From: an uncultured Gammaproteobacteria bacterium
GTDB taxonomy: Bacteria; Patescibacteriota; Patescibacteriia; Magasanikbacterales; GWA2-37-8
DNA length: 64,000 bases
Direction of reading: 5' to 3'
Assembly: GCA_964511375.1 (NCBI GenBank)
Contig: CAZEEW010000001.1
Coordinates: forward strand, 6,512-70,511
Shown here: piece after piece, positions 1,338-40,551 of the stretch
Numbering within the stretch: position 1 is the stretch's first letter
Layout of the letters: each line of letters starts with the position of its first letter
The notes under the pieces: generated by a model
The model's input: the letters and a program-made list of their open reading frames with translations, nothing else
What the model was told of the DNA's origin: nothing
Databases searched by the model: none
Position numbers and translations under genes: made by a program

Positions 1338-2735
1338 ATGGAAACAACAAAACGTGAAGCAAAGTCATTGTTTTTCGAAGCTTTAATTTCCTCTTGGGTT
1401 GCCTGGTCAGCCTTATTTGTTATGATCGGAGTTATGTTGGCGCATGGTAACCACCTGGTAGCCGGCGGCGCCATATTAATTGCCGCCATTCTCGGCATGA
1501 ACGGCTTGGCGAGAACTGACATGTGGTTAACAGCCAGCGGACCACATTGGTGGAGACATCACCGTTACTTAAAATTCTTTCATCACATCACTAACGAGGG
1601 GGAACTAGCCGGTATTTTTGTTGGTCTCATTGCCTTAATAATGCTTGTAGTAACTGGCGACACTGCCCACCTGCATTTTCCTTACCGAGAAGCTCTGACC
1701 TTACTTGGTATTATGTCAGCTGCCAATATCGCTGTTCGACACGTGATTCCTTTAATGGGGGTAATTGAAAAATTCCTTGGCACAAAAGGTGTAATTATTG
1801 TTGGCTCCATCCTATCTTCATTGACCGGAGAACCAGCTGCCAGTGTCTTTTTGGCTGAATACTTCAAGAAAAGAATAGACGAAAAAGATCGACCACGCGT
1901 TGCTACCGGCCTCGCCGCCACCATTGGGTCTGGTGGTGGTCTAATGCCGTTTGCCGCCCCTCCCATCTTGATTGTCTGGGCAATTTTGGCTCGTGAATTT
2001 AATTGGAGTATTAGTACGCTTATACTCTTTGTTGGACTTGGTTGTTTAGCACATGTTATTACGTCGTCTTTTTGGTTTGGGAAATTCATTAAAAAACCAC
2101 AGGAAAGTCAAGAAAAAATAAAAATTAAAGAGGCGTGGCCGCTATTATTAATGATTGTGGTTGTTTTGTGGCACATTTTCTTCCCAGGATTAATTCTATG
2201 GATCGTAGACGGCCTACTTGGCGTTACATCCTGGTATCTAGCGAACAAAAAATACCGCAATTGCGGTGAAGAGCTTAAAGAAGAGGCCTTCACTGCCAAA
2301 TGGCAGCCAATCATTTTATCAACTCTTTTAGTGGCACTTGAAATAATTGGTTTAGTAGCCGACCCGTTAATAACTTCCATTGCGATGCAGATCCCCACAA
2401 CATTTCCTCCGCTGGCTATAAGTTTACTGCTATTTTTTATAACCGCCTGGGTATCTCATTTTGCCGACAACGCACTAGCATCTCGTGTCTTTATTATGGT
2501 ACCTGTAGCACTTCAAGTAGTAGTCGGATCAACTGTTGCCTCTTTACTTGCGAGCAGTGTTATTATGGGAGCATTGTTTGGGGGATTCTTGCTTATCCCG
2601 GCCAACTTACCAAATTTTTATTTAGCTCGATCTTTAAAAGTCTCCCCTGGCGCTTGGCTCAGAGTTTCTTGGTTTCTTTACCCCACCGCACTTGCATATA
2701 TATTTTGGATCGTCGCCCGCTATTTCATCTCTTAA
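1338..2735 (+). CDS. Polytopic membrane protein, probable cation/ion transporter (Na+/H+ antiporter-like superfamily)
   Basis: 465 aa with 10-12 predicted TM helices and Gly-rich helix motifs. Upstream TTGAAT-17-TAAAAT promoter-like element at about 1282-1310. Confidence 0.45.
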   Translation: METTKREAKSLFFEALISSWVAWSALFVMIGVMLAHGNHLVAGGAILIAAILGMNGLARTDMWLTASGPHWWRHHRYLKFFHHITNEGELAGIFVGLIALIMLVVTGDTAHLHFPYREALTLLGIMSAANIAVRHVIPLMGVIEKFLGTKGVIIVGSILSSLTGEPAASVFLAEYFKKRIDEKDRPRVATGLAATIGSGGGLMPFAAPPILIVWAILAREFNWSISTLILFVGLGCLAHVITSSFWFGKFIKKPQESQEKIKIKEAWPLLLMIVVVLWHIFFPGLILWIVDGLLGVTSWYLANKKYRNCGEELKEEAFTAKWQPIILSTLLVALEIIGLVADPLITSIAMQIPTTFPPLAISLLLFFITAWVSHFADNALASRVFIMVPVALQVVVGSTVASLLASSVIMGALFGGFLLIPANLPNFYLARSLKVSPGAWLRVSWFLYPTALAYIFWIVARYFIS

Positions 2736-2748
2736 TACCAACAATACT

Positions 2749-2776
2749 AAAACCCCGGTTGCAACCGGGGTTTTAG
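2749..2776. terminator. Bidirectional rho-independent terminator (CCCCGG-ttgcaa-CCGGGG flanked by A-run and T-run)
   Basis: Perfect palindromic hairpin between convergent genes 1338..2735 (+) and 2789..3994 (-). Confidence 0.65.
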
Positions 2777-2788
2777 TATTGTTGGGTT

Positions 2789-3994
2789 TTATCCAAACAT
2801 TAACCACTCTGGACGAAAAATTAATACCAAACCAATTACGACCATTAATATACCACCAATGAGCCTAGAATATCTAGTATACTTTCCGGTTATACCAGTT
2901 ATATGTAGAGTGGTCATGGCGACAAAAAAAACAAAAAGATCATCTAAAAGGAAGAAGAGTACGTACAAAAGCAAATATCCATAGTATTGCCAGGTTGGTA
3001 AATTACTTAAAGCTAGAATTTGCGTATACACAGCCGGAAAGCCAGCTGAACAGACTAATTCAACTAAATTCACCGCAAAAGCAAGCAGTATTATTCCACC
3101 GAACGCTAACCAAAAATTCTTCTCCAGGGTTATCTCTTTCAGCCGAGCGAAGACCTTTTTTCTTTCATCACTATTTGTAACCTTACAGGTTGCTTCCCGA
3201 TTTGTAAAATATTCTTTCAGATTGTATGCTCCTCCACCCAAGGCCACCAAGCCAATAATTATACGAACTAAAAAGATAAAACCTAAAAACATTATTAAAT
3301 TCAGCCAGGCGGCCATGAACAAAAAGTACACCGCTGCCGAAGACACCAGGAAAGCCGATCCCAACACCCACATACGGCGCCGATTCTGCATGCCCAACAA
3401 TAACGAAATTAAAAATAACAAAGTCCACATAGCGCACGGATTAAAGCCGTCCAAAGCTCCGATCAGTATGGTTATAACCGGTAATGAAAGATTGGCCGTG
3501 TTGACCTCACCAATTAAAGGAACTTTTAACTTCCTGGCTACAGGGTCCTTTGGCCGAACCTCAGTAGTACTATTGTTCATTACCTTACTACCAACGATTT
3601 CTGATACACTATCGGTACAAGTATGTCTTAAACAATAGTCTATTCTTTCTTCAATTTCCGCTGGAGTAACGGCATCTTCATAACCAATAAAATACTTGTC
3701 TCCCACTACCGTAAAAGGCACCCCACCCACTTGCGCCTTTAAAATACTAGCAACTTTTTCAATTAGCTTAATATTCTCTGGGTGGCGGTATAGTTCATAA
3801 CTGTACACCTTCACTCCATCGTACTTATCTTCCATCATTTTCAAAAACGGCTTTTCTTCCGCGCAATGTGGGCAGCCTTCACCCCAGAAAAAATAAACAT
3901 TTAATCTATCCTCGTTCGCAGCCGAAACAAAAGTTGGGCCAAACAACAGTCCAACCAATATTAAAAAACTAAATATAAATCGATTAGGCTTCAT
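2789..3994 (-). CDS. Signal-peptide thioredoxin domain (WGEGCPHC) fused to a CcdA/DsbD-type transmembrane thiol-disulfide transporter domain
   Basis: N-terminal signal peptide, CPHC thioredoxin motif, then polytopic region containing the conserved-Cys CcdA/DsbD motif LDGFNPCAMW. Start overlaps the upstream gene by 11 nt. Confidence 0.7.
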   Translation of the reverse strand: MKPNRFIFSFLILVGLLFGPTFVSAANEDRLNVYFFWGEGCPHCAEEKPFLKMMEDKYDGVKVYSYELYRHPENIKLIEKVASILKAQVGGVPFTVVGDKYFIGYEDAVTPAEIEERIDYCLRHTCTDSVSEIVGSKVMNNSTTEVRPKDPVARKLKVPLIGEVNTANLSLPVITILIGALDGFNPCAMWTLLFLISLLLGMQNRRRMWVLGSAFLVSSAAVYFLFMAAWLNLIMFLGFIFLVRIIIGLVALGGGAYNLKEYFTNREATCKVTNSDERKKVFARLKEITLEKNFWLAFGGIILLAFAVNLVELVCSAGFPAVYTQILALSNLPTWQYYGYLLLYVLFFLLDDLFVFFVAMTTLHITGITGKYTRYSRLIGGILMVVIGLVLIFRPEWLMFG

Positions 3995-5690
3995 AAACTA
4001 ATTTGATATAACACGCCTCGCAAGTTAATTTTAAATTCCGACCTGGCTGCAAACGTGACCAGATTCTTTTCTGACAATTATTACAGGTATTTGGGTACAG
4101 ACTAAACGAGCGGAAAGCAATACTACGCCTGGTTCGGCGAACGATCGGGTGCTCTTGTGGCAAAGCCAACCCCATTTGACGATGAAAATCTAATTCGGGT
4201 TTGGCGATTCGAAAAGCTCGACCATTAACACGGGATTTAAAAACTTTTTGTACAATATCATCTGTAGCATCCTCTAAATTGTTTGGTATCTGGCTAATAT
4301 CTGCTCCCGGTTCATTCTTTTCGGAAGCAAAATCGTAGTAACGCATACCGAGTTTTTTTACTTCCCCTTCTTCAAGCGGATACAAGACATTGGCATGCGT
4401 CGTGTTGTAGGAAAACAACGACAAATGATAGGGAAAGAAATTTCCGTATTCCCCTCTTTTAAACATTTCTGTTTTTATCTCATCTACCTTTTGCCAATAT
4501 TCTCCCTCTGAGTATTCCTTATTAAAAATATGGAATTTTTTATGACGCAACCCAATACACCCAAAACAGTGCTCGGAAGAATAACAAAACTCTGAATATT
4601 CAACATCCGAACAATTGCCGCAGCTTAAGCTCATTTTCGTATCATAACTCGGCACCATACTAACGCAATTTACCAAACGTTCCGATCCAGAGGAAGTTGT
4701 TACGTCTAAGCAGTCACGTAAATGAGAAACATCAAATACATTATAAGAATGTTGGACGTTGTAAGCATAACCACCAAAAACATCCCGTGAACTTCCCAAC
4801 TGGTCTCCAACCACATCTTCACTGGTGTAACATTGTCCAGCCAAATGGTAAGCCTTCTCCCAAAACTCGTGTGCTTTCTTTTCCCACTCCGAAACGACTT
4901 TAGCATCCTTAAAATTCACTTCCGCTAATCGCTTACTATATTCCCCTTCTGTTAGTTGCTCGTTAAACCAACAGTACTTCTTATGGACCAAGTTTGTACA
5001 GCCGAAACAATATGAACAACTTTCACATTGGTAAGAAAAATACATTTCTAAACAAGCCTCACACCGTTCAGAATAAAATATATGCGAACTATCTGTACAC
5101 TGGACGGCTTCATAGCACCATTCAGAATTAACTAAGGCCGTACAATCAGTTGAAAATTTTGCATCAGCGCAAAAATCTGAATAATTTAATCCCTGGCTAT
5201 TCAAGCCGCCGTAGACAAAATAACAATCACGACTTTGTAAGTCATATAACGCCCAAGCACTATTTTCACTATTCGGATCCTGGTTAATCGCCGGGCGAGG
5301 AATATTCCAAGAAAATTCTTTATACTGATCAAAGAAGCTCTTTTCTGGATCGCAATCACGCGCGTAAGAGAGAGCGTTAAAATTATCCGAATTCCATTCT
5401 TTATTAGACCGCAACTTTGCCGGACTTTCCGGGTCATACATGGAAATTAACATCTCCCCATTCTCCGCTGGACGCCTAAACAAATCAAAGCCAGCCATAA
5501 AAGAACGCAGACGACGAAAACGCACCCACGGTGCAACCGTAGGCAAGGGCATTTCTAATGCCTTGTACAAAGCAAATTCTCTTTCAGATATTACAAACTT
5601 CGTGCCGGTTTCTGTACATGTTCTCTCTCCTGGTTTCTCCTTCGTGTAATATTCATCTAAAAGTGCTTTAAACTTTGGTGTATTCGACAT
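3984..5690 (-). CDS. Cytoplasmic cysteine-rich repeat protein, family unrecognised, with C-terminal zinc-ribbon-like CxxC-x17-CxxC
   Basis: 568 aa, about 40 Cys, no signal peptide. Two internal repeats of CxxC-x9-C..C..CFGC-x-L-x-HKK-aromatic-x-FN-x3-(T/S)EGEY. Coupled 10 nt downstream of the ATPase gene. Confidence 0.6.
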   Translation of the reverse strand: MSNTPKFKALLDEYYTKEKPGERTCTETGTKFVISEREFALYKALEMPLPTVAPWVRFRRLRSFMAGFDLFRRPAENGEMLISMYDPESPAKLRSNKEWNSDNFNALSYARDCDPEKSFFDQYKEFSWNIPRPAINQDPNSENSAWALYDLQSRDCYFVYGGLNSQGLNYSDFCADAKFSTDCTALVNSEWCYEAVQCTDSSHIFYSERCEACLEMYFSYQCESCSYCFGCTNLVHKKYCWFNEQLTEGEYSKRLAEVNFKDAKVVSEWEKKAHEFWEKAYHLAGQCYTSEDVVGDQLGSSRDVFGGYAYNVQHSYNVFDVSHLRDCLDVTTSSGSERLVNCVSMVPSYDTKMSLSCGNCSDVEYSEFCYSSEHCFGCIGLRHKKFHIFNKEYSEGEYWQKVDEIKTEMFKRGEYGNFFPYHLSLFSYNTTHANVLYPLEEGEVKKLGMRYYDFASEKNEPGADISQIPNNLEDATDDIVQKVFKSRVNGRAFRIAKPELDFHRQMGLALPQEHPIVRRTRRSIAFRSFSLYPNTCNNCQKRIWSRLQPGRNLKLTCEACYIKLVYEA

Positions 5691-5700
5691 ACTGACTTAA

Positions 5701-7218
5701 CTAAATTGGCGGCAACATGTCTTCTAGTTTATCTTTTTTCTCCGGACCCGCTTCCGGAGGCATGAAGGGATCAGTTGAAGCTTCCTCCTCCTCTTCATCT
5801 TCTACGTATTCCTCGTCATCGTCTTCTAACGGACTTTCCTCTCCTGTTAAAACCTCGGCAATCGGTTTGCTAAACCTTATCCGCGATTCTTTAATTACCT
5901 CCTCCACTCTTTCGGATCGATTAGCCTCTATAACATCTAATGTAGTTGCCGAAAAAGCAGTCGTCACCTTTCCTTCAATCGACATTTTGATATAAAATTC
6001 CCGCCCCCCAATATTGGTCAAATCTTTTGGTTCAACTAGGGGCTGAAATTCCTGAGCCAGCCTTTCCGAATCCGCTCCACTTACTCTGAAGGCGATTAAT
6101 GTGCCAACATTACCAAAAATTGCCTCCTGTAAATCTTCAGGAATCTGGGCCAAATACTGGTTAGCCACAGTAATATTGATGCCGTATTTACGAGACTCGG
6201 AAAATAATGACGTAAATGATTTCGTCGCCACATTTTGAAACTCATCCACATACAAATAGAAATTCTTACGCTCTTTCTCAGGTATCTTAGCCCGAGCCAT
6301 TGCCGTCTGGTTAATCTTCGTTAAGAAGAAAGTTGCAAACAAAGCGCTGTTTTCTTCACCCAAAGTACCTTTTGAAGCGTTGATCAAAAGGATCTTCTTG
6401 TGGTTCATTATATTCTCAAAATCTATTTTACTCTCCTTTTGCGAGAAAACTGCGCGGAGTAATGGATCAGCAAAAAATTGTCCCAACCGATTTGTTAAAG
6501 GAGTTATAGCCTCCTGGTCATATTTTTGCGTAAAGCCAGCAAATTCAACCGTAAAAAATCTTTTAACGACTTCATCAGTTACATGTTTCATAACCCCCTG
6601 GCGATACTGTGGGTCAGTTAAAAGCTGCAAAAAACCATACAATGTTCCTTCTGGATTTTCCAAAGTTGCTAAGGTTGCAAAACGGAACAAATGTTCAATA
6701 CGCGGTGTCCAAGTGCTAGCAAATTGCTTTTTAAATATTTCTACCAATCCCTGTGCTACAATCTGGCGGTATTCAGCCGGGACCTGGGCAAAAGGATTAA
6801 AGGATATGGCATATTCTGGATCTCCTGGATTAACATATACGACATCAGCTAAACGCTTTTCCGGGATAAATTCTAATATCTGTTTTACCAAATCTCCATG
6901 CGGGTCAATTACTGCCAGGCCAAAATCATAGGCAACATCAAAACGGATGAGGTTTTCTAGCAGCTTACTCTTGCCCATGCCACTTTTCCCAATTATATAC
7001 ATGTGGCGCTTTCGATCCTCCCGCTTAATGCCAAACACATCCCGATGACGATAAAGCCCCTGGGCAAAATTTGTTTGCCCAAAGAAGGATGCTTGCGTCA
7101 TCTGGTTCTTGGCGTACTTCGGGAGATTAACGGGAGGAGGAAGAAGTTTAAAATTCAGGCTCTCCAATGAATTAATATCTGCCATAATAGAAGGTAAATG
7201 ATGGATATATTCTAGCAC
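5701..7218 (-). CDS. Soluble P-loop ATPase of the VirD4/TraD/TraG (type IV coupling protein) / HerA-FtsK-like superfamily with poly-acidic C-terminal tail
   Basis: Walker A GKSGMGKS and Walker B LYVDEFQ. No N-terminal TM helices. C-terminal EDDDEEYVEDEEEEE. First gene of a three-gene minus-strand operon. Confidence 0.6.
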   Translation of the reverse strand: MLEYIHHLPSIMADINSLESLNFKLLPPPVNLPKYAKNQMTQASFFGQTNFAQGLYRHRDVFGIKREDRKRHMYIIGKSGMGKSKLLENLIRFDVAYDFGLAVIDPHGDLVKQILEFIPEKRLADVVYVNPGDPEYAISFNPFAQVPAEYRQIVAQGLVEIFKKQFASTWTPRIEHLFRFATLATLENPEGTLYGFLQLLTDPQYRQGVMKHVTDEVVKRFFTVEFAGFTQKYDQEAITPLTNRLGQFFADPLLRAVFSQKESKIDFENIMNHKKILLINASKGTLGEENSALFATFFLTKINQTAMARAKIPEKERKNFYLYVDEFQNVATKSFTSLFSESRKYGINITVANQYLAQIPEDLQEAIFGNVGTLIAFRVSGADSERLAQEFQPLVEPKDLTNIGGREFYIKMSIEGKVTTAFSATTLDVIEANRSERVEEVIKESRIRFSKPIAEVLTGEESPLEDDDEEYVEDEEEEEASTDPFMPPEAGPEKKDKLEDMLPPI

Positions 7219-7286
7219 ACCGGGCTTCCTTTGCCAATTAAATCCTATTGACTTTCTACCTTATTTTAGATAATATGTCTGCACCA

Positions 7287-7358
7287 TGCGGGTATCATAT
7301 AACGGCTATTATCCAGGTTTTCCAAACCTGTGACACGGGTTCGACTCCCGTTACCCGC
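7287..7358 (+). tRNA. tRNA-Gly (anticodon TCC)
   Basis: Cloverleaf folded by hand: acceptor GCGGGTA/TACCCGC, anticodon stem CAGGT/ACCTG, loop TTTCCAA, T-arm ACGGG-TTCGACT-CCCGT. No encoded CCA. Confidence 0.85.
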
Positions 7359-7408
7359 TCGTACAAAAACAGGCTCATAATTAGGAGCCTGTTTTAAAAT
7401 ATTATTAC

Positions 7409-14766: not shown

Positions 14767-14839
14767 GGGCCAATAGCTCAGCTGGTAGAGCAACGCCTTT
14801 GCAAGGCGAAGGTCAGGAGTTCGAATCTCCTTTGGTCCA
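14767..14839 (+). tRNA. tRNA-Ala (anticodon TGC) with G3:U70 identity pair
   Basis: Hand-folded cloverleaf: acceptor GGGCCAA/TTGGTCC, anticodon loop TTTGCAA. Confidence 0.85.
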
Positions 14840-14860
14840 CAGATGCTAGAGACATCATAA

Positions 14861-14932
14861 GCCGAGGTAGCTCAGTGGTAGAGCGAAGGACTGAAAATCC
14901 TTGCGTCGCGGGTCCGATCCCCGCCCTCGGCA
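14861..14932 (+). tRNA. tRNA-Phe (anticodon GAA)
   Basis: Acceptor GCCGAGG/CCTCGGC, anticodon loop CTGAAAA, T-arm GCGGG-TCCGATC-CCCGC. Confidence 0.85.
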
Positions 14933-14939
14933 CCGACAA

Positions 14940-15013
14940 CGGGGATTAGCGCAGTTGGCTAGCGCGTCTGGTTTGGGACCAGAAGGTCGTGGGTTCAAGT
15001 CCCACATCCCCGA
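14940..15013 (+). tRNA. tRNA-Pro (anticodon TGG)
   Basis: Acceptor CGGGGAT/ATCCCCG, anticodon stem TCTGG/CCAGA, loop TTTGGGA. Confidence 0.8.
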
Positions 15014-15015
15014 CA

Positions 15016-24837: not shown

Positions 24838-27800
24838 CTATTTATTTATTTCAAACCCTGGCCCAACAAAATGCATGGCATCAAGAATCGTTTGGGTTTC
24901 TGGTAATATTCCGGCGACCATTACATTGTTACCAAAAAAATTCTCAATAACATCACCTACTTTGCTAAACAGTTTGCTCTCAATCATCGTTTTTGCCTCG
25001 CTTGAACCAATATATACTGGTAAGTACTGCTCACCACCCAGGTTAACAATGTCAAAGCCTTGGATGTCATTTTTAAGTTTTTGTGGGACAGGGCGAGAAC
25101 CATTAGGTAATTCCGTGGGTATCGTAGTTGATAGGCCGGATGCAGGAAGAATGAAATAGAAGCTCTTTATTATCTCCCCCTCCGCCACATGTTTAATCGA
25201 TGCAGAGTTCATCATCTTCGCTAAGGTGGCATTGTTTAGGAAGTGATACTTATCGATCAAAGTACCAGTCGGTTCGAGTATCCCAACAACCCTAACGCTT
25301 GGTAAGCCAAAGAAGTTTGTTAAACTATCCCCAGCACCTTTAATAAGACCTTCCTCTTTCATCATCATGGCTTCATCGTAACCAATTACCATTTCGTTAT
25401 TACCCAGGGCCAAGGCACCTTCACTGGCTTTTAGCATGCCGGGTAAATTTTCTGTACCCAAGAACAACTTAGGGTCACCACTCGCAAAATAAATTTTGGT
25501 TTGTCCGTTAGCAATAAAAGTATTAAAGATTGCGGCGTTCTCAGCTGATACAGTACCGCTCATACCCCGGCTTTCCATGCCTGAACTAAGTTTAGCAAAC
25601 TGGAAAAAGCCCAAAGTAAATACCACTACCATAACTAACGGGGCAACTAGTGAAAAATAGTTTCTTTTATCTGGTTTGAAAAAACGCAACAACAAAGAAT
25701 TTCCCACTACCGAAATAGAACTCAAAGCCATGGCCAAACCCGCAAGCTCGGGTTTCAACACTAAACCTAAGCCAACAAACACACGAGCAGCAATCGGGAT
25801 GCCTACCACATTGTAAAACAAAGCAAAAAACATGTTCTGCTTAATTTTCGTTAGGGTCTCTCTAGAAAGCTGTATGGCGTGCACAACATCACTTAAATCG
25901 TTTCTCATTACTACTACCCCACCAGTTTCCATTGCCACGTCAGTACCACTGCCCATAGCAATCCCAAGATTGGCTTGGGCCAAAGCTGGGGCGTCGTTGA
26001 TTCCATCACCAACCATAGCAACTTTCTTGCCAGACTCTTGCAATTTTTTTACTTCTTTTGCTTTGTCCTCCGGTGGCACTTCAGCCAAAATATTTTTTAT
26101 ACCTACCTGAAGAGCAATCGCCTGCGCGGTCCGTTCGTTATCGCCAGTAATCATGTAAACTTCTACTCCCATTTTCTGCAGTTTTTCTACTGCTTGCTTT
26201 GAGGTTTCCTTTACGGTATCTGCTACAGAAATTATACCCAACACCCCTTCCTCACTCCCGAGAAGCATGGCAGTTTTGCCATTTTCTTCTAGACGAATTA
26301 ATTTTCGATTAGCATCCCCCACTTCGAGATTGGCCACCTCAGTCATCATCTTCCGATTACCAAAGTAATATAACTTACCCTGAATTTGTCCCTGCACACC
26401 GTAACCAGGTACGGCTTTAAAGTTTTCAACCTCTACTAAGGCGACTCCCTCTTCCCTAGCATAGGCATAGATGGCTTCAGCCAAAGGATGCTCAGATAGT
26501 TTCTCTAGGCTAGCGACAACAGATAAGATATCGTCCTCATCTCTACCACCTAAAGTTATTACATCCGTTACTTCTGGTTTACCTTTAGTCAAGGTACCAG
26601 TCTTATCAAAGACAATGGCATTTACTTTACAAGCAGTCTCTAATGGTTCTCCGCCTTTAACAAGAATACCGTTTTCCGCCCCCTTGCCCGTACCTACCAT
26701 AATAGCGGTCGGTGTTGCTAGACCCAAAGCGCACGGACAGGCAATAACAATTACCGAAGTGAAGGCCATGAGCGAGAAAGCCAACGAAGCGCCGAGAAAG
26801 AAGTACCAAACTATAAATGTTAGGGCAGCCAAAACCAAAACGATTGGGACAAACTTAGCAGAAATTTTATCTGCAAAGTCCTGAATTGGAGCCTTGCTTC
26901 CTTGCGCCTCTTCGACCAAACGAATAATTTGCGCCAAGACCGTTTCACTACCTACTTTGGTAACTGTAAAATCAAAACTGCCGGTTTTGTTTATCGTGCC
27001 GCCGACCACATTATCTCCTGCTTTTTTCTCTACCGGAATACTTTCGCCCGTTACCATGGACTCATCGATCGCGGAAGCACCACGGACAACCGTTCCGTCA
27101 ACCGGAACTTTTTCTCCTGGCCGGACAATCACCACGTCTCCCCTGACCACTTCATCAATGGAAATATCTTTAGCAACTCCATCTCGAATTACGCGAGCCG
27201 TCTTAGCTTGGAGTCCCATCAATTTTTTAATTGATTCTGAAGTTTTCCCTTTCGTTCGAGCTTCTAACCACTTACCTAAAATTACAAAAGTAATAAGAAA
27301 AGCAGCGGTTTCAAAATACAAATCAGGTATTTTTTCTCCGTTTAAACCAGTGATTGAATTATTAGTAATAGCATAAATTATAAAAACGGCGAGACTATAA
27401 AAGAAGGCGGTTGAGGTCCCAATTGCAATCAAACTGTCCATATTAAAAGTCCTCATGCGCAAAGCGGACCACATACCTCTATAAAATCCTCGCCCAATCA
27501 CGAACTGGATCGGGGCAGCCAAAACCAAAGAAACGACTCCGATATATGGCATTAAAAAAGCTCTCGCCGGTAACCAAGCAAAGAAATCCAAAAACATGAA
27601 ATACAACATCGGAGAACTCAAGATGGCACTAAAAAGAAACTTCCTAAAATAAGATTTCATTTCCACTTCCCGCTTCTTACTTTCCCACTCCGTATCCTTA
27701 ACATCAATTTCTTCGGCTTGATAACCTGCTTTCTTAACCGCGGACTTTAATTCCCCAATTTCCACCCCTCCCAATAAGGTAACCGTAGCTTTTTCTGAAG

Positions 27801-28476
27801 CAAAGTTGACGATGGCCTCTTTAACCCCGGGAACTTTCTTAAGTGATCGTTCAATAATCCCCGCACAACTAGCACAGTGCATTCCGGAGATGGCTAAATT
27901 TAACCTTGTTTGCTGTTCCTTGCTTTTTGAATCGGGAAGGGGCGTATTAACAATGGATCCGGCTTCGGGCTTGGGCCCATCTTTTGGAGAAGCCGTGCCC
28001 TCAAAAGTATTATTTAAAAACTGAGTACTTTTAAATAATTCAATCCAGTGCTTTTTTGAAACCTCTTGCCCTTTTGGCAATCTAATCTCCGCTACTTTCC
28101 GGTTTTTTAACTTTCCCTCAAAGTAGGATTTGCCCTTTTCGTCTTCTCTTACCCTACCTTCGGCTTCAGTGCTGGAATCTATTTTTAAAGAAACCGGCTC
28201 ACCTACTTCAGCTTCCTCAAAGCTCACCTTTAACCCGGTTGATTCGTGTCCTGGATTTTTTGTAACTACTTCAGAAACATATCCAGCCCGAGTAACTGCC
28301 GCAACCAAGTCTGCATCAGTCACCTGATTAAGGTCGGCCGTTACACTTGCTTTTCTGTCAACGAAGGATACTGTGGCGTCTTGTACTCCAGGCACATTTC
28401 TTAGTTCGTCAGTAATAATTGCCTCACAAGACTTACAGTGCATTCCTTCGATTTTTAACTCAACTTTTTTTTCCAT
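24838..28476 (-). CDS. copA: Copper-translocating P1B-type ATPase with two N-terminal HMA domains and a non-canonical C-terminal extension (extra TM helix plus about 260-aa domain)
   Basis: GMHCxSC twice, [25 protein letters not shown]. At 1212 aa it is about 300 aa longer than typical CopA. Confidence 0.85.
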
Positions 28477-28487
28477 ATCCTTAATAT

Positions 28488-28712
28488 TTAATTCGGTTGT
28501 AAAATATCCACTTGGTAGGGTAAACCATTTAGAGCTTTCTTTACATCTTCTAGACTAATCTCATGAGTAGATTCTAATTGTCCGCCCGCTTCAGAACCGT
28601 TCCTTTCCAGACTCACTTTTTCCACTCCAGCAATCTTTTCAATTTTCGACTGAGAGACTTTAACGCAGGCATCACAATTCAAATTAGATAATTTAATTTT
28701 GTAAGTTGTCAT
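28488..28712 (-). CDS. copZ: HMA-domain copper chaperone (CopZ-like)
   Basis: 74 aa with a single CDAC metal-binding motif in ferredoxin-like fold context. Confidence 0.65.
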
Positions 28713-28724
28713 ATGTATATTAAG

Positions 28725-30143
28725 TTATTGCGGTCCACAACCAGCATCAAAGCGGCACACAACATTTTCACCGGAAGGAGAAGACTGAACACTAGTATTA
28801 GCCGTCTCGTTTTCGGTCTTCTTTTCAACCACAGTAAACTGACCACGGTACATGCCCATTGAGCACGAGAAAGGAATAGTACCGGTCTGGGTTGGCGTAA
28901 AACGAATAATGTTTTCCCCTTTCTTTAGAGATTGACTTATCCGGTATTCCGGAACGACCAAATAAGCGGCACAAGAAAAATTAGTCTCTGAATTTACGAT
29001 CCATTTCACTGGTTTTCCTTTTTCTACTACTAAATTATTTGGATAATAACCATTGGCTTTTTGAGTCATACGTACTATCTGCTCTTCGCCCGTAGTCTCA
29101 TTAGCGGTTGTGTTATTTTCTCCACCACCAAAATTAACCAACCGACTACCATTAGCGATATTTATCCACCCCAAAACAATAACCAACAAACCAGCTGTGG
29201 CGTAAAAAAGTCGTGCCTTCTGGCCTTTAAAGACCGAGGCCAAACCACCCACACCCAGCAACCCCGGTGCGGTGCCAACAGCAAACAAAGACATAATTAG
29301 CGCACCACGAACAAAACTGCCAGAACTAACAGCCAACAGCTGCATCGCTTGCGTAAACCCACAAGGCAAGAAAAAGGTGAGCATACCAGAAATAATTGCT
29401 GTTCTGTGACTATATTTTTCAGCACCTTTATTTGCACCAAGCAGCCGACCAATGCCCTTTGGCAAAGCAACCGAAATCTTTTTTAACTTTGGGAAGATAT
29501 CCACCAACTTAAGACCAAGCAAAATCATTACCAATCCCACAATAATAGTTAAAAAGCCAAGCAAACCAGCCGATGGACTTAGGGCAGAACCAACTAATCC
29601 AATTAGACCACCCAACACAGCAAAACCAACAATTCTTCCCAGATTGAAAAATAGATGTGGTACGAATTTCTGTTTCCTGGTTGTTTCTGGGTGTAACTCA
29701 CTATAACGAGCTGATGCTCCTAGAACCAGGCCACCAATAATGGCCATGCAGGTTGAAAACCCAGCTACTAGCCCAACTAATGGGACAATCCAAAGGCTGG
29801 AACTATCAGTATCAAGACTCATTTCAAATATACCAGCGGCCTTTCCAATTAAATATAGAACTACGATAATTAGCGCGGCATATCCAAGGTACTTATAATC
29901 CTCTCGATTCTTAGAGAACCACCCAACCTTCTCTTCCTGCCCCACAACATACCCAGCCTTGTCCACGGCCACAGCAATTAATTCCGGACTCGGTGGACTA
30001 CCTTGGCACAAAAGATTGGCTTGGCCAGTTTTATGATTTACCCTTACTTCTCTAACACCAGGCAAACTTATTAATTGTTCCTCAATTAATATTTCACACG
30101 ATTTACAATGCATGCCACGAATGGGCACTTTAAGTTTTGTCAT
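28725..30143 (-). CDS. HMA domain + DsbD_2/TauE-like transmembrane domain + C-terminal cupredoxin-like domain membrane protein
   Basis: N-terminal GMHCKSCE, polytopic core with FFLPCGFTQ, C-terminal about 110-aa beta-rich domain with conserved Cys/Met. Confidence 0.55.
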   Translation of the reverse strand: MTKLKVPIRGMHCKSCEILIEEQLISLPGVREVRVNHKTGQANLLCQGSPPSPELIAVAVDKAGYVVGQEEKVGWFSKNREDYKYLGYAALIIVVLYLIGKAAGIFEMSLDTDSSSLWIVPLVGLVAGFSTCMAIIGGLVLGASARYSELHPETTRKQKFVPHLFFNLGRIVGFAVLGGLIGLVGSALSPSAGLLGFLTIIVGLVMILLGLKLVDIFPKLKKISVALPKGIGRLLGANKGAEKYSHRTAIISGMLTFFLPCGFTQAMQLLAVSSGSFVRGALIMSLFAVGTAPGLLGVGGLASVFKGQKARLFYATAGLLVIVLGWINIANGSRLVNFGGGENNTTANETTGEEQIVRMTQKANGYYPNNLVVEKGKPVKWIVNSETNFSCAAYLVVPEYRISQSLKKGENIIRFTPTQTGTIPFSCSMGMYRGQFTVVEKKTENETANTSVQSSPSGENVVCRFDAGCGPQ

Positions 30144-37899: not shown

Positions 37900-37987
<88 letters not shown>

Positions 37988-38076
37988 ATTTGCACCATAC
38001 TATCATTTACGTAGTTTATGGTCAACCAACTGGGTCTTGTAAAACAAACTAAAATATGTTATCCTCTCTTTGTTTT

Positions 38077-38164
38077 GGAAGGGTGCGAGAGCGGTTTAAT
38101 CGAACGGTCTTGAAAACCGTCGTCCCGCAAGGGACCGTGGGTTCGAATCCCACCCCTTCCGCCA
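38077..38164 (+). tRNA. tRNA-Ser (anticodon TGA), class II, CCA encoded
   Basis: GGAAGGG...anticodon loop CTTGAAA...variable arm CGTCCCGCAAGGGACCGT...GGTTCGAATCC...CCCTTCCGCCA. Confidence 0.8.
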
Positions 38165-38745: not shown

Positions 38746-40551
38746 CTACTTTAGTAAGCCTCCCCACTCCACGACCGTAAATCCATTTCTCTTCGGTGTC
38801 CGGAGGGTTGGCTCTTTAACATCTACCGGTCTTTCTAATCCCTCAAATTCCATAAAGACGCGAATTACAGTGTCTGGTTTCGGTTGAACTGTAAGAGGTG
38901 CTAATTCTTCCATAGCGCGAGTGCCCATAAACTTTATCAAGTAGTATGGACTAGTTTGCATCTTTGGATACCAGAATTCCATAAAGTCTGCCTTTTCTCT
39001 TTCGTTTAACCCCATAACTCCGAGCTTTTCTTCCAGCATTCCTTTCACCTCTTCTTTCTTTACGACATAACCTTCTTCTGGCATTAGATATCTTCCGGAA
39101 CCCAACCCTTCCCAAAAAAGATACGGATAAACATTACCACTTTTTACTTCTTTAAGTTCTCCGTTAGGCTTGGCCACGACCTCCCAGCCGTTTTGGTATA
39201 GTGGGTCAGAATAAGTAACTTTTAGCAAATCGAGTTTAACATTTATTTTTGTTTCTTTTTCTGGATATAGGTAGATAACCGGTTTACCACACTCAACTGG
39301 TGGTTTAAATTTTAAATTCTTCAAACGAATCCAGCGACCCAACGGATCTTTCCAAAACACCAAGGGCTTAGATTTGACGTATTCGTCGTAAGAAATATTC
39401 TTACCCTCACTGGGGTAAAAACTTGACTCATAAGCTCTTTTTAATAGTTCGTGATTAATGTCTTTAAGACCATAAACTTCGTCGCCGCTGCTCGCCTTGC
39501 CAATTTCGACTAAATCAGTCTCACTAAGATTTCTTTCTACTGCGACAGTTCCGTACCCGCTACACCCACTGTCTTGGTAAGAAGTAAAAGAATGGCTGGT
39601 GTGGTCTCCATCGTTCCAGGTAACTTTCGCCACGTTCTCGGAGGTGATAAAAGGGACATCAACAACATAAATAGCCACCGTTCCGTCTGGAGCAATAATT
39701 TTGTGAGAGCCGTTCTGTACGTCTTCGTAAACATCTCCCCACTTAGCAATAACAAAAACTTTTTTGTATTTTGGCTCAACTGTCTTGGCCATATCTTCTT
39801 TTAACCAAACCAGTGGGTATGGGCGGGCAGGCTCGCCCAAGTATCCTTCAAATCCTTCTCGGATAAATTTAGCTCCTCCATACGTAAAGCTCTGAGGAAA
39901 ATCCCAAGCCGGGATATTTAAGGTTTTGTCGACATAAAAATTAGCGTAGTTCGGTACATACATCTCCGGTTCACCAACTTTGTGCGAGGCCTTGGAGACA
40001 TAATAAAGCTTACTGTTAAAGGAAATTAGGTAGGCATCTTGTGAGAGACCCATGTCGTATCCGACCCCTTTCATAAAATACACTGTTCCTACTGAACCAG
40101 CACGGCTAAAAGTACCAACTTTATAATAATTAGCCTGATTTTCGTCGCTTGCTCTCAAATAAAAACCTAATTTATTTGTTTTATCCGGCCACTGCCAACT
40201 AACATTTTTTAAAATGTCTGCTGGTAAATTCTCGTATTGGGCCTGCACCGTGGAAGTCACAATCTGCTCTTCAGTACTAGTTGACGACAAAACATCGGAC
40301 ACCGAAGTACACACCCCGTTTTCCAACACCTCTCCGACGTTGCACGGAGCACCAAGGCTGCCATTCACGCCTGTGGTTACACTATTTTCTCTTTCTAAAT
40401 CTTCAATTTCACTTCTTCCGAAGAAATACCCAACCACCGCGCTCAATACAATTAATGTTGCGGCGCCGGCTAAAAGAATTACTAAGTGCACCCGATTATT
40501 TGTAACATTCGGGAGCGGGCCCGTATTTTTGTCCGATTTGAAATTAAACAT
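38746..40551 (-). CDS. Secreted hypothetical protein (601 aa, N-terminal TM anchor)
   Basis: ORF with signal-anchor. No recognised motif. Confidence 0.45.
   Translation of the reverse strand: MFNFKSDKNTGPLPNVTNNRVHLVILLAGAATLIVLSAVVGYFFGRSEIEDLERENSVTTGVNGSLGAPCNVGEVLENGVCTSVSDVLSSTSTEEQIVTSTVQAQYENLPADILKNVSWQWPDKTNKLGFYLRASDENQANYYKVGTFSRAGSVGTVYFMKGVGYDMGLSQDAYLISFNSKLYYVSKASHKVGEPEMYVPNYANFYVDKTLNIPAWDFPQSFTYGGAKFIREGFEGYLGEPARPYPLVWLKEDMAKTVEPKYKKVFVIAKWGDVYEDVQNGSHKIIAPDGTVAIYVVDVPFITSENVAKVTWNDGDHTSHSFTSYQDSGCSGYGTVAVERNLSETDLVEIGKASSGDEVYGLKDINHELLKRAYESSFYPSEGKNISYDEYVKSKPLVFWKDPLGRWIRLKNLKFKPPVECGKPVIYLYPEKETKINVKLDLLKVTYSDPLYQNGWEVVAKPNGELKEVKSGNVYPYLFWEGLGSGRYLMPEEGYVVKKEEVKGMLEEKLGVMGLNEREKADFMEFWYPKMQTSPYYLIKFMGTRAMEELAPLTVQPKPDTVIRVFMEFEGLERPVDVKEPTLRTPKRNGFTVVEWGGLLK

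What the first reader, a model, noticed from the sequence alone, without database searches (positions are those of the whole stretch)
2789..7358. tRNA-Gly-adjacent operon: soluble VirD4/TraD-like ATPase + giant Cys-rich repeat protein + secreted thioredoxin fused to CcdA/DsbD
Three minus-strand genes are packed tightly: a 10-nt gap and an 11-nt overlap. They begin immediately downstream of tRNA-Gly(TCC), a classic integration hotspot.

The first gene is a type-IV-coupling-protein-like Walker ATPase without the usual membrane anchor. The second is a 568-aa cytoplasmic protein with about 40 cysteines in an unrecognised repeat architecture. The third is an extracytoplasmic thioredoxin fused to a CcdA/DsbD electron conduit.

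I know of no characterised system that couples a T4CP-like motor, a Cys-rich cytoplasmic factor and a transmembrane disulfide-reductant conduit. The module could be a novel export/uptake or redox-maturation system, possibly mobile.
Basis: partly seen in the sequence, partly recalled or inferred. Interest (0 to 1): 0.72.

Follow-up and report, generated by a model that had tools for sequence, protein, structure and literature searches.

The report
Orphan coupling-type ATPase with cysteine-rich partner
The three packed genes are not one system: the first two (a soluble conjugation-type ATPase and a zinc-ribbon/beta-solenoid cysteine-rich protein) form an undescribed gene pair conserved across the ultra-small Patescibacteria, where the second gene is often multiplied into arrays of up to ten copies, while the third gene is an unrelated, widespread exported-thioredoxin membrane protein that sits next to them only in this lineage.

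Summary
The three minus-strand ORFs, the 10-nt gap and the 11-nt overlap are real. Three details are wrong. The middle protein has 26 cysteines, not about 40. The tRNA-Gly is divergent, with its 3' end pointing away. No profile supports a CcdA/DsbD assignment.

The window is from a Patescibacteria (CPR) genome.

- **Gene A** is a soluble TrwB/VirD4-like P-loop ATPase.
- **Gene B** is a confidently modelled protein (pLDDT 91) with no Pfam, NCBIfam or PDB counterpart. Its architecture is Zn-ribbon module, two Cys-ladder 12-residue beta-solenoids, Zn-ribbon module.
- **B family**: about 5,700 clusters at 50% identity, seen only in Patescibacteria. Same-strand tandem arrays are common (55 of 82 loci have at least 2 copies, maximum 10, median paralog identity 41%).
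- **A–B linkage** is conserved: A lies within 1 kb on the same strand in 24 of 82 B-seeded loci, and B is present in 19 of the 28 closest A-seeded loci.
- **Gene C** is adjacent only in two near-identical relatives. It is absent from 80 A-seeded loci, and none of 6 C-seeded loci carries A or B. Its usual neighbour is a small cytoplasmic thioredoxin.
- There are no island features.

Best reading: an ATPase–client pair plus an independent thiol-relay gene. The function of A–B is unproven.

The parts
5701..7218 (-). Gene A: soluble TrwB/VirD4-like (FtsK-HerA superfamily) P-loop ATPase, 505 aa from GTG 7218 or 494 aa from ATG 7185. Walker A is GKSGMGKS (aa 77-84) and Walker B is YLYVDEF (aa 321-327). 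No TM segment and no Cys.
   Evidence: ORF and sequence. Profile matches: Pfam TrwB_AAD_bind 5e-9, TraG-D_C 4.7e-7; NCBIfam conju_CD1115 1.7e-15; PDB TrwB 2.7e-6. Walker residues are invariant in alignment A3. No hydrophobic segment.
3984..5690 (-). Gene B: 568-aa cytoplasmic Cys-rich protein (26 Cys) of a Patescibacteria-only family, with architecture Z-S-S-Z.
   Evidence: No Pfam or NCBIfam hit. 265 full-length homologues, all with CPR names. 5,702 50%-identity cluster representatives. AF2 model pLDDT 90.9, pTM 0.91. No PDB counterpart.
5376..5633 (-). B, N-terminal Zn-ribbon-like module (aa ~20-105). It is degenerate in this copy: only C25 is retained of the family's C25/C28/C53/C56/C75.
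   Evidence: HHalign of the N module against the C module: 99.4%, E 1.4e-21. Cys frequencies per column. zf_Tbcl or zf_Tbcl_2 hits in 14 of 45 homologues, but none for this copy.
4914..5276 (-). B, beta-solenoid 1 (aa ~139-259). Coils are about 12 residues long with Cys at every third residue. It ends in C222-x2-C225-x2-C228-x2-C231 and the motif CFGCxNLxxKKY.
4473..4829 (-). B, beta-solenoid 2 (aa ~288-406). Its end (aa 376-420) is the most conserved stretch of the family. The family consensus is C369-x2-C372-x2-C375-x2-C378; this copy has Ser at 372.
4005..4241 (-). B, C-terminal Zn-ribbon module (aa ~484-562). The last ribbon is intact (C536, C539, C557, C560) and is homologous to a ribbon in the C-terminal extension of the 'long' A-type ATPases of other genomes.
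   Evidence: Invariant Cys. HHalign against the A-long extension: 96.1%, E 3.2e-9. Pfam zf_Tbcl_2 in A-long of L004.
2789..3994 (-). Gene C (adjacent, but not part of the conserved module). It has a signal/anchor (aa 1-25), an extracytoplasmic CPHC thioredoxin-fold domain (aa ~30-125) and a six-TM domain (aa ~168-401). Invariant Cys lie in TM1 (C187, NPC motif), in a cytoplasmic loop (C270) and in TM4 (C315).
7288..7360 (+). tRNA-Gly(TCC), divergent from gene A. Its 5' end faces the operon and its 3' end points away.
   Evidence: ARAGORN and Rfam. The same arrangement occurs in L006 and L007. No second copy of its 3' end in the window.
7209..7237 (-). Promoter-like site TTGGCA-17-TAGAAT with an extended TG. 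It overlaps the GTG at 7218, so if it is used the start codon would be the ATG at 7185. This is a consensus match only.
   Evidence: The number of such sites in the region is not above shuffles.
2738..2785 (.). Long G+C-rich perfect hairpin between the stop of C and the convergent gene 1338..2735, acting as a likely bidirectional terminator. No terminator-like site lies at the A-B or B-C junctions.

Best explanation
The locus holds two separate things.

(1) Genes A and B form a conserved, Patescibacteria-specific two-gene module.
- A is a soluble ring-ATPase of the TrwB/VirD4 branch of the FtsK-HerA superfamily.
- B is a non-enzymatic, metal-binding scaffold: a terminal Zn-ribbon module at each end flanking two Cys-laddered beta-solenoids.
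- Inferred mechanism: the ATPase engages B as its client or adaptor through B's terminal Zn-ribbon modules. The 'long' paralogous ATPases carry the same ribbon type.
- In most genomes this happens at the membrane, where a DUF8128 membrane protein is encoded next to, or fused with, A-type ATPases.
- Genomes carry from one B (this window) to at least ten diverged B paralogues, often each with its own TrmB-type regulator. These would be alternative clients.
- I lean towards hand-over or export at the membrane rather than purely cytoplasmic remodelling.

(2) Gene C is an independent, very widespread envelope thiol-reductant relay: cytoplasmic thioredoxin, then membrane cysteines, then an extracytoplasmic CPHC thioredoxin domain.
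- It works like CcdA/DsbD-thioredoxin pairs.
- It has merely been juxtaposed to, and probably co-transcribed with, A-B in this lineage.

Nothing indicates a mobile island.

Shown: the anatomy, the family sizes, the linkage statistics and the independence of C. Inferred: physical A-B interaction, metal binding, and the direction of action.
For: A-B linkage:
- In 82 non-duplicate B-seeded loci (1.24 Mb) an A-type gene is present in 28, and lies within 1 kb on the same strand in 24.
- Chance expectation is about 4% per 20 kb. This is my inference from about 2 T4CP genes per roughly 1-Mb genome; the T4CP count is from PMC12102498.
- The A-to-B gap is at most 50 nt in 8 of 18 loci.
- In the reverse census, B is present in 19 of the 28 closest A-seeded metagenome loci.

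Shared module:
- The A-long extension carries a zf_Tbcl_2 ribbon.
- That ribbon is homologous to B's last ribbon (HHalign 96.1%, E 3e-9).

Membrane partner:
- DUF8128, which has an N-terminal TM segment, lies directly upstream of or fused to A-type ATPases in more than 45 of 80 loci.

B as a scaffold rather than an enzyme:
- The model is confident and only solenoid-type structural neighbours are found.
- The conserved residues are mostly Cys, Gly, Pro and aromatics.

B arrays:
- 55 of 82 loci have at least 2 copies and 256 of 257 copies are on one strand.
- The median spacing between copies is 38 nt.
- Median paralogue identity is 41%.
- TrmB-type regulators are interleaved in 23 loci.

C is independent:
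- A small thioredoxin gene lies immediately upstream of C in 4 of 6 other genomes.

Not mobile.
Against: - There is no experimental or structural evidence that A binds B.
- No A-B fusions were found.
- 54 of 82 B loci show no A within the stretch held, including some of the largest arrays (L035, L036). Many of these loci are truncated.
- Only the A subclade closest to the window's A is linked to B.
- The window itself has no DUF8128 and no VirB4 among its large ORFs.
- A Saccharibacteria T4CP homologue was reported as non-essential for epibiotic growth (PMC12102498).
- Metal binding by the Cys ladder is inferred from sequence periodicity only. I could not inspect the model coordinates.
- The 11-nt B-C overlap in this genome suggests co-transcription, so a lineage-specific functional tie to C cannot be excluded.
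Confidence: 0.45

Rival explanations
1. A-B is a cytoplasmic nucleic-acid-handling or defence-type complex. In this reading a HerA/FtsK-like hexamer scaffolds or loads Zn-finger proteins that bind DNA or RNA, by analogy with HerA-NurA or HerA-effector defence assemblies. The B paralogues would be diversified sensors or binders.
For: - A and A-long hit PADLOC models mad8 (2e-11 and 3.5e-18) and HerA (1e-8).
- zf_Tbcl-type ribbons are annotated by one source as a 'Zn ribbon nucleic-acid-binding protein' (P0115).
- All A-type proteins sampled are soluble.
- A relatives occur in large Bacillus phages, one annotated as 'DNA helicase or translocase'.
Against: - The PADLOC hits are generic P-loop similarity. 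B has no PADLOC hit.
- The best profile matches of A are to T4CP families, not HerA.
- The frequent DUF8128 membrane partner, sometimes fused to A, points to the membrane.
- Arrays of ten old paralogues are atypical for known defence systems (my own knowledge).
Confidence: 0.2
2. One reading: A, B and C form one export/uptake or redox-maturation system, possibly a mobile island inserted at tRNA-Gly. In this model the extracytoplasmic thioredoxin would service the Cys-rich protein after export.
For: - The three genes are tightly packed, with a 10-nt gap and an 11-nt overlap and no internal terminator.
- The same order is found in L006 and L007.
Against: - C is adjacent in only 2 of 82 B-seeded loci, both near-identical relatives.
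- C is present in 0 of 80 A-seeded loci, and A or B in 0 of 6 C-seeded loci.
- C has its own conserved partner, a small thioredoxin.
- The tRNA 3' end faces away from the trio.
- There is no att-like repeat, no integrase among the flanking ORFs and no GC shift.
- B is absent from plasmid, phage and IMG/VR collections.
Confidence: 0.05
3. B is mainly a cytoplasmic metal store or buffer (Zn, Cu or Fe-S), a solenoid 'metallothionein'. The arrays would give capacity, and the neighbouring ATPase would be incidental or would unload metal.
For: - B proteins have a median of 35 Cys at a 3-residue spacing, including CxxCxxCxxC coils.
- A CutA1 (divalent-ion tolerance) gene lies between A and B in 7 loci.
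Against: - The strongly conserved non-Cys motifs and the fixed 550-590-aa architecture are more than a metal sponge needs.
- This window's copy has lost many of the ladder Cys yet is otherwise intact.
- No metal transporter or metal sensor is consistently adjacent.
Confidence: 0.08
4. The A-B adjacency is inherited synteny without a functional link.
For: - Many B arrays lack A nearby.
- Surrounding housekeeping synteny is also partly conserved: SecDF, and tRNA clusters near A-B in L001 and L012.
Against: - Adjacency persists across classes at 30-45% protein identity while the flanking genes differ.
- Spacing is operonic.
- A-long and B share a Zn-ribbon type.
Confidence: 0.05

Closest known systems
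Type IV coupling proteins (TrwB of R388, VirD4, TraD)
   Same: A has an FtsK-HerA-type P-loop ATPase domain with a TrwB_AAD_bind profile match above the Pfam cut-off, plus a TraG-D_C match. T4CP genes often sit next to the gene of their substrate, the relaxase (PMC12102498). That is the analogy I use for B.
   Different: - A has no N-terminal membrane anchor.
- There is no VirB4, relaxase or other T4SS gene among the window's large ORFs.
- NCBIfam equivalog scores are far below their cut-offs (56.9 against 250).
- The neighbour is a Zn-ribbon/solenoid protein, not a relaxase.
[quoted passage not shown]
HerA/FtsK-family ATPases paired with a partner protein (HerA-NurA; HerA-effector defence systems)
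   Same: A soluble ring ATPase is encoded next to a partner it is thought to scaffold or load. A has weak PADLOC HerA and mad8 hits.
   Different: The best profile matches are to T4CP families, not HerA. The partner B has no nuclease, Sir2 or other effector domain, and no PADLOC hit.
CcdA/DsbD membrane reductant conduits working with thioredoxin-like proteins (e.g. CcdA-ResA; CcdA-thioredoxin fusions such as mycobacterial DipZ, recalled from my own knowledge)
   Same: - C has an extracytoplasmic CxxC thioredoxin-fold domain and a six-TM core with invariant Cys in TM1 and TM4.
- A cytoplasmic thioredoxin gene lies immediately upstream of C in 4 of 6 other genomes.
   Different: - No Pfam DsbD or DsbD_2 match was found for C or its homologues.
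- There is no HHalign similarity to the window's own DsbD_2 protein.
- No 3+3 internal repeat was detected.
- C has a third invariant Cys, in a cytoplasmic loop (C270).
Tenebrio molitor antifreeze protein beta-helix and other narrow beta-solenoids (curli CsgA, left-handed hexapeptide-repeat helices)
   Different: - B is cytoplasmic, has Cys every 3 residues rather than one pair per coil, and is embedded between Zn-ribbon modules.
- The similarity is local and low.
- Foldseek finds no significant whole-protein match.
Tandem arrays of divergent VirB2-like pilins in Patescibacteria
   Same: Both are same-strand arrays of 2-11 structurally conserved but sequence-divergent paralogues (average 25% identity for the pilins) in the same phylum (PMC12102498).
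   Different: The pilins are small secreted membrane proteins located near virB4. B is a 570-aa protein without a signal peptide and is linked to orphan T4CP-like ATPases.

Membership tests
Type IV coupling protein (VirD4/TraD/TrwB) | FtsK-HerA-type nucleotide-binding domain with Walker A and B motifs and a profile match to T4CP models | tested here: met
   Pfam TrwB_AAD_bind 36 bits against a cut-off of 20.5; TraG-D_C 30.2 against 22; T4SS-DNA_transf 22.4 against 20.1. PDB TrwB 2.7e-6. Walker residues are invariant in alignment A3.
Type IV coupling protein (VirD4/TraD/TrwB) | N-terminal transmembrane anchor | tested here: not met
   No hydrophobic segment in A, nor in the 38 A-type proteins of related loci apart from marginal internal peaks. 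A separate or fused DUF8128 membrane protein may supply the anchor in other genomes, but none is present in the window.
Type IV coupling protein (VirD4/TraD/TrwB) | Genetic association with VirB4/T4SS genes or a relaxase | tested here: not met
   No such gene among the window's ORFs of at least 150 aa that were scanned. phmmer with A finds only A itself in the window. In the literature only 148 of 5,713 Patescibacteria T4CP homologues lie near virB4.
Type IV coupling protein (VirD4/TraD/TrwB) | Score above the curated NCBIfam equivalog cut-offs | tested here: not met
   conju_CD1115 56.9 bits against 250; SXT_TraD 48.4 against 366; conj_TOL_TraD 33.5 against 647.
CcdA/DsbD membrane thiol-disulfide transporters (for gene C) | Profile match to DsbD (PF02683) or DsbD_2 (PF13386) | tested here: not met
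   No hit even at E up to 10. Neither family appears in the precomputed Pfam lists of 120 homologues. HHalign against the window's own DsbD_2 domain gives probability 0.4%.
CcdA/DsbD membrane thiol-disulfide transporters (for gene C) | Six-TM core with one essential Cys in TM1 and one in TM4 | tested here: met
   Invariant C187 (NPC motif, in the helix at 171-200) and C315 (in the helix at 294-329). The helix boundaries come from a low-confidence model and from hydropathy.
CcdA/DsbD membrane thiol-disulfide transporters (for gene C) | Internal 3+3 TM repeat and the DsbD fold | tested here: inconclusive
CcdA/DsbD membrane thiol-disulfide transporters (for gene C) | Electrons supplied by a cytoplasmic thioredoxin and delivered to an extracytoplasmic thioredoxin-fold protein | not testable with these tools
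   Context only. An 89-90-aa thioredoxin gene lies immediately upstream of C in 4 of 6 genomes. None is present in this window.
Thioredoxin fold (N-terminal domain of C) | CxxC motif in a thioredoxin fold | tested here: met
zf_Tbcl / zf_Tbcl_2 treble-clef zinc fingers (terminal modules of B) | Profile match and paired CxxC ligands | tested here: inconclusive
   9 of 45 homologues hit PF23477 and 5 of 45 hit PF13451, but the window's B does not. The window's last ribbon has four Cys (536, 539, 557, 560). Its N-terminal module retains only C25.
tRNA-integrated genomic island | Island abuts the 3' end of the tRNA, bounded by a direct repeat of that end, with an integrase and deviating composition | tested here: not met
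   The tRNA 3' end (7360) faces away from the trio. There is one copy only of the 23-nt 3' end, allowing up to 3 mismatches. No integrase family was found in the flanking ORFs. GC is 0.39-0.43 inside and outside the region.

The most novel reading that the evidence does not exclude
The B family is the missing cargo, or cargo adaptor, of the Patescibacteria type IV machinery. In this reading the orphan soluble VirD4-like ATPases, docked on DUF8128 membrane proteins, recognise the terminal Zn-ribbon modules and deliver alternative, individually regulated B paralogues out of the cell or into the host. There the Cys ladders could oxidise into antifreeze-protein-like disulfide-braced solenoids. In this window's lineage the neighbouring exported thioredoxin could then service them.
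Probability: 0.15. Interest if true: 0.85.

Novelty: new variant of a known kind. Interest (0 to 1): 0.6.

Why it matters
Patescibacteria carry thousands of VirD4-like 'coupling protein' genes that are not next to any secretion system. Their role is explicitly open in the literature (PMC12102498; PMC12857230), and the substrates of the essential Patescibacteria T4SS are unknown.

This analysis gives one subclade of those orphan ATPases a specific, conserved genetic partner. That partner is a very large family (about 5,700 clusters at 50% identity) with a confidently predicted but unprecedented architecture. It is often expanded into arrays of old paralogues, each with its own regulator. The analysis also identifies a recurrent membrane partner, DUF8128.

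This turns a vague 'exapted T4CP' idea into testable hypotheses about interaction, localisation, metal content and secretion. It also shows that the attractive three-gene redox-export story is a lineage-specific juxtaposition.

Tried and rejected
- **Island at tRNA-Gly**: rejected on orientation, absence of a repeat, absence of an integrase and flat GC.
- **Other copies in the window**: none of A, B, C or DUF8128.
- **B in defence, phage or plasmid resources**: nothing in PADLOC, PHROGs, PLSDB, INPHARED or IMG/VR.
- **A-B or B-DUF8128 fusion proteins** in the 160 or so loci: none.
- **Literature searches** for the B family, DUF8128 or a CPR thioredoxin-membrane fusion: nothing specific.
- **Not used**: I ran no further search on A, because its family identity and abundance were already established.


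Full report
**What is in the sequence**

Three minus-strand ORFs occupy 2789..7218:
- A is 5701..7218, 505 aa from a GTG preceded by AGGAAG. An ATG at 7185 is the alternative start.
- B is 3984..5690, 568 aa.
- C is 2789..3994, 401 aa.

The A-B gap is 10 nt and the B-C overlap is 11 nt, as reported. No terminator-like site sits at either junction. A long perfect hairpin (2738..2785) follows C and is shared with a convergent gene.

tRNA-Gly(TCC) is at 7288..7360 on the + strand. It is therefore divergent from A, and its 3' end points away from the trio.

B has 26 cysteines, not about 40. A has none. Neither has a hydrophobic segment. C has an N-terminal signal/anchor and about six further TM segments.

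**Gene A**

- Pfam matches are TrwB_AAD_bind (5e-9, above its cut-off), TraG-D_C and T4SS-DNA_transf.
- NCBIfam gives VirD4-like and TraD models, but far below the equivalog cut-offs.
- The only PDB relative by sequence is TrwB.
- Walker A (GKSGMGKS) and Walker B (YLYVDEF) are invariant among 16 orthologues.

A is therefore a T4CP-branch ATPase that fails two family criteria. It has no membrane anchor. There is also no T4SS or relaxase context in the window.

[quoted passage not shown] It leaves open that they were exapted for another role (PMC12102498; see also PMC12857230).

**Gene B**

B has no Pfam, NCBIfam, PADLOC or PHROGs match.

*Family size and distribution*
- A word-indexed search found 265 full-length homologues of about 570 aa. 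All named ones are Patescibacteria: Magasanik-, Uhr-, Kuenen- and Peregrinibacteria.
- An exhaustive profile search found 5,702 50%-identity cluster representatives at E up to 1e-3, of which 2,293 are at E up to 1e-30.
- At least 591 stretches in species-representative genomes carry its motif.
- It has no relatives in PLSDB plasmids, GenBank phages or IMG/VR.

*Structure*
- AlphaFold2 with 45 homologues gives pLDDT 90.9 and pTM 0.91.
- Foldseek finds nothing significant.

*Internal duplication*
- The N-terminal module (aa ~23-100) matches the C-terminal module (aa ~484-562) by HHalign at 99.4%, E 1.4e-21.
- Solenoid 1 (aa ~139-259) matches solenoid 2 (aa ~288-406) at 99.9%, E 1e-31.
- The architecture is therefore Z-S-S-Z.
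- The terminal modules are treble-clef-type Zn ribbons: zf_Tbcl_2 or zf_Tbcl is hit in 14 of 45 homologues, but not in this copy.

*Cysteine pattern*
- In the solenoids, Cys recur every third residue within coils of about 12 residues.
- Each solenoid ends in CxxCxxCxxC followed by the family signature CFGCxGLxxKKxCxFN.
- This window's copy is at the Cys-poor end of the family. It has lost most ligands of the N-terminal ribbon and has Ser at consensus Cys372.

The conserved non-Cys residues do not look catalytic. From the periodicity alone I infer metal coordination or a thiol ladder. I could not inspect the coordinates.

**Neighbourhoods**

*B-seeded census* (82 non-duplicate loci, 1.24 Mb)
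- B is usually multi-copy: 55 loci have at least 2 copies, 17 have at least 5, and the maximum seen is 10.
- 256 of 257 copies are on one strand, with a median spacing of 38 nt.
- The paralogues are old: median identity within an array is 41%, range 27-61%.
- A-type ATPases are present in 28 loci, and within 1 kb on the same strand in 24.
- The short form, like the window's A, is mostly upstream of B. 'Long' forms are mostly downstream.
- The A-to-B gap is at most 50 nt in 8 of 18 loci.

*A-seeded census* (80 metagenome loci)
- B is present in 19 of the 28 closest relatives of the window's A.
- It becomes rare among more distant ones.

*Other recurrent neighbours*
- TrmB-family regulators: 37 genes in 23 loci, typically divergent just upstream of a B gene.
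- CutA1, between A and B in 7 loci.
- SecDF.
- A sigma70_r4/HARE-HTH protein.
- DUF8128, a protein with an N-terminal TM segment. It lies directly upstream of, or is fused to, A-type ATPases in more than 45 of the 80 A-seeded loci.

*Link between the ATPase and B*
- The C-extended 'long' ATPases carry a Zn ribbon (Pfam zf_Tbcl_2).
- That ribbon is homologous to the last ribbon of B (HHalign 96.1%, E 3.2e-9).
- No A-B fusions were seen.

**Gene C**

- Its N-terminal domain is a thioredoxin fold with an invariant CPHC.
- The membrane part has invariant Cys in TM1 (NPC), in a K/R-rich (hence probably cytoplasmic) loop, and in TM4.
- It has no DsbD or DsbD_2 profile match, no similarity to the window's own DsbD_2 protein, and no detectable 3+3 repeat. 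Its model is poor.
- The family is very large and well conserved: more than 7,690 hits at about 55-63% identity.

C's genomic context is independent of A-B:
- C is adjacent to A-B only in L006 and L007, whose B is 87% identical to the window's.
- It is not adjacent at 60% A identity (L085), nor in any of the 80 A-seeded loci.
- None of six C-seeded loci contains A or B.
- In four of those six, an 89-90-aa thioredoxin gene immediately precedes C. ArsP_1/ArsR/Thioredoxin_3/ferredoxin genes are nearby in three.

So C works like a CcdA/DsbD-thioredoxin reductant relay, but membership is not shown. It belongs to a different functional neighbourhood.

**Mobility**

- There is no second copy of the tRNA 3' end.
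- No integrase or phage family was found in the flanking ORFs.
- GC is 0.39-0.43 inside and outside the region.
- The same tRNA-A-B-C order occurs in close relatives, and tRNA clusters near A-B occur in more distant ones. This is consistent with inherited synteny.

**Interpretation**

The best-supported reading is a conserved ATPase-client pair (A-B) plus an independently functioning envelope thiol relay (C), juxtaposed only in this lineage.

I commit to B being the client or adaptor of the ATPase, docking through its Zn-ribbon modules. In most genomes this would happen at the membrane via DUF8128. The multiple, separately regulated B paralogues would be alternative clients.

This mechanism is inferred, not shown. 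Rivals are:
- a cytoplasmic nucleic-acid or defence-type HerA-like assembly;
- a metal store;
- mere synteny;

The most novel reading not excluded is that the B arrays are the unknown cargo of the Patescibacteria type IV machinery.

**Caveats**

- ORF calling in the loci was mechanical and used table 11, whereas Gracilibacteria recode UGA.
- Loci are truncated at 10 kb or at contig ends, so counts are lower bounds.
- Several MAG titles (for example 'uncultured Gammaproteobacteria') are evidently automatic mislabels.
- The chance expectation for A near B uses literature gene counts.

Noticed in passing
window 24838..30143 (-): A copper-type P1B ATPase (1,212 aa; HMA x2, E1-E2_ATPase) lies next to a 472-aa protein combining HMA, a bona fide DsbD_2 membrane domain (4.5e-32) and a cupredoxin-like domain. 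This is an unusual fusion and the window's only true DsbD-superfamily member.
   Followed up: partly
L004, L071, L077, L014, L016, L018, L025, L072 and more than 45 of L085-L164: DUF8128 (about 450-570 aa, with an N-terminal TM segment) lies directly upstream of, or in one open frame with, A-type ATPases. The N-terminal extension of the ~745-aa Peribacteria ATPases matches it. It looks like a detached or fused membrane anchor for these orphan T4CP-like ATPases. No literature on it was found.
   Followed up: partly
L036, L043, L048, L054, L057, L061-L063, L068 and others (23 loci): TrmB-family HTH regulator genes (~255 aa) are interleaved in the B arrays, mostly divergent just upstream of a B gene. 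This suggests individual regulation of the paralogues.
   Followed up: partly
L003, L014, L015, L016, L018, L022, L025: A CutA1 (divalent-ion tolerance) gene sits between the short ATPase and the first B gene in Parcubacteria-type loci.
   Followed up: no
window 14767..15014 (+) versus L001 7761..8074 and L012 4533..5345: A tRNA-Ala/Phe/Pro cluster lies about 7.5 kb from the trio in the window. A matching Pro/Phe/Ala cluster immediately follows B in a Magasanikbacteria genome. A Gly/Pro/Phe/Ile cluster lies about 4 kb upstream of A in L012. This suggests old synteny between tRNA clusters and the A-B pair.
   Followed up: no
window 5701..7218; PHROGs phrog_5156; Bacillus phage G gp156: A matches an 824-position phage family of unknown function very strongly (8e-54; profile positions 411-801). 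It has 21-27% identical relatives in jumbo Bacillus phages, one annotated as 'DNA helicase or translocase'. Six IMG/VR contigs carry closer relatives (up to 45% identity), none with B.
   Followed up: partly
window 40578..43535 (-): A 985-aa protein with four lamin-tail domains, a PKD domain and a C-terminal OB fold, probably a surface or nucleic-acid-binding protein. The neighbouring 601-aa ORF 38746..40551 has no Pfam match.
   Followed up: no
window 37900..38164: A divergent pair of tRNA-Ser genes (CGA on the - strand, TGA on the + strand), 89 nt apart.
   Followed up: no
L007, L009, L010, L071, L082 (record titles): MAGs titled 'uncultured Gammaproteobacteria bacterium', and several titled 'Saccharibacteria', carry this Patescibacteria-only family. 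L007 is 87% identical to the window's B. The automatic taxonomic labels are evidently unreliable.
   Followed up: no
P0281 (731 aa): One B homologue has a 180-aa N-terminal extension that looks like a GNAT acetyltransferase by eye. It may be a real fusion or an assembly or annotation artefact.
   Followed up: no
window 7185..7237 (-): The best sigma-70-like site (TTGGCA-17-TGxTAGAAT) overlaps the GTG start of A. The true start may therefore be ATG 7185, which has no obvious Shine-Dalgarno sequence, giving a 494-aa protein. Residues before about aa 20 are not conserved in orthologues.
   Followed up: partly
window 1338..2735 (+): A convergent 465-aa polytopic membrane protein with a weak DUF1646 match (6.6e-7) shares the 2738..2785 hairpin with gene C.
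   Followed up: no
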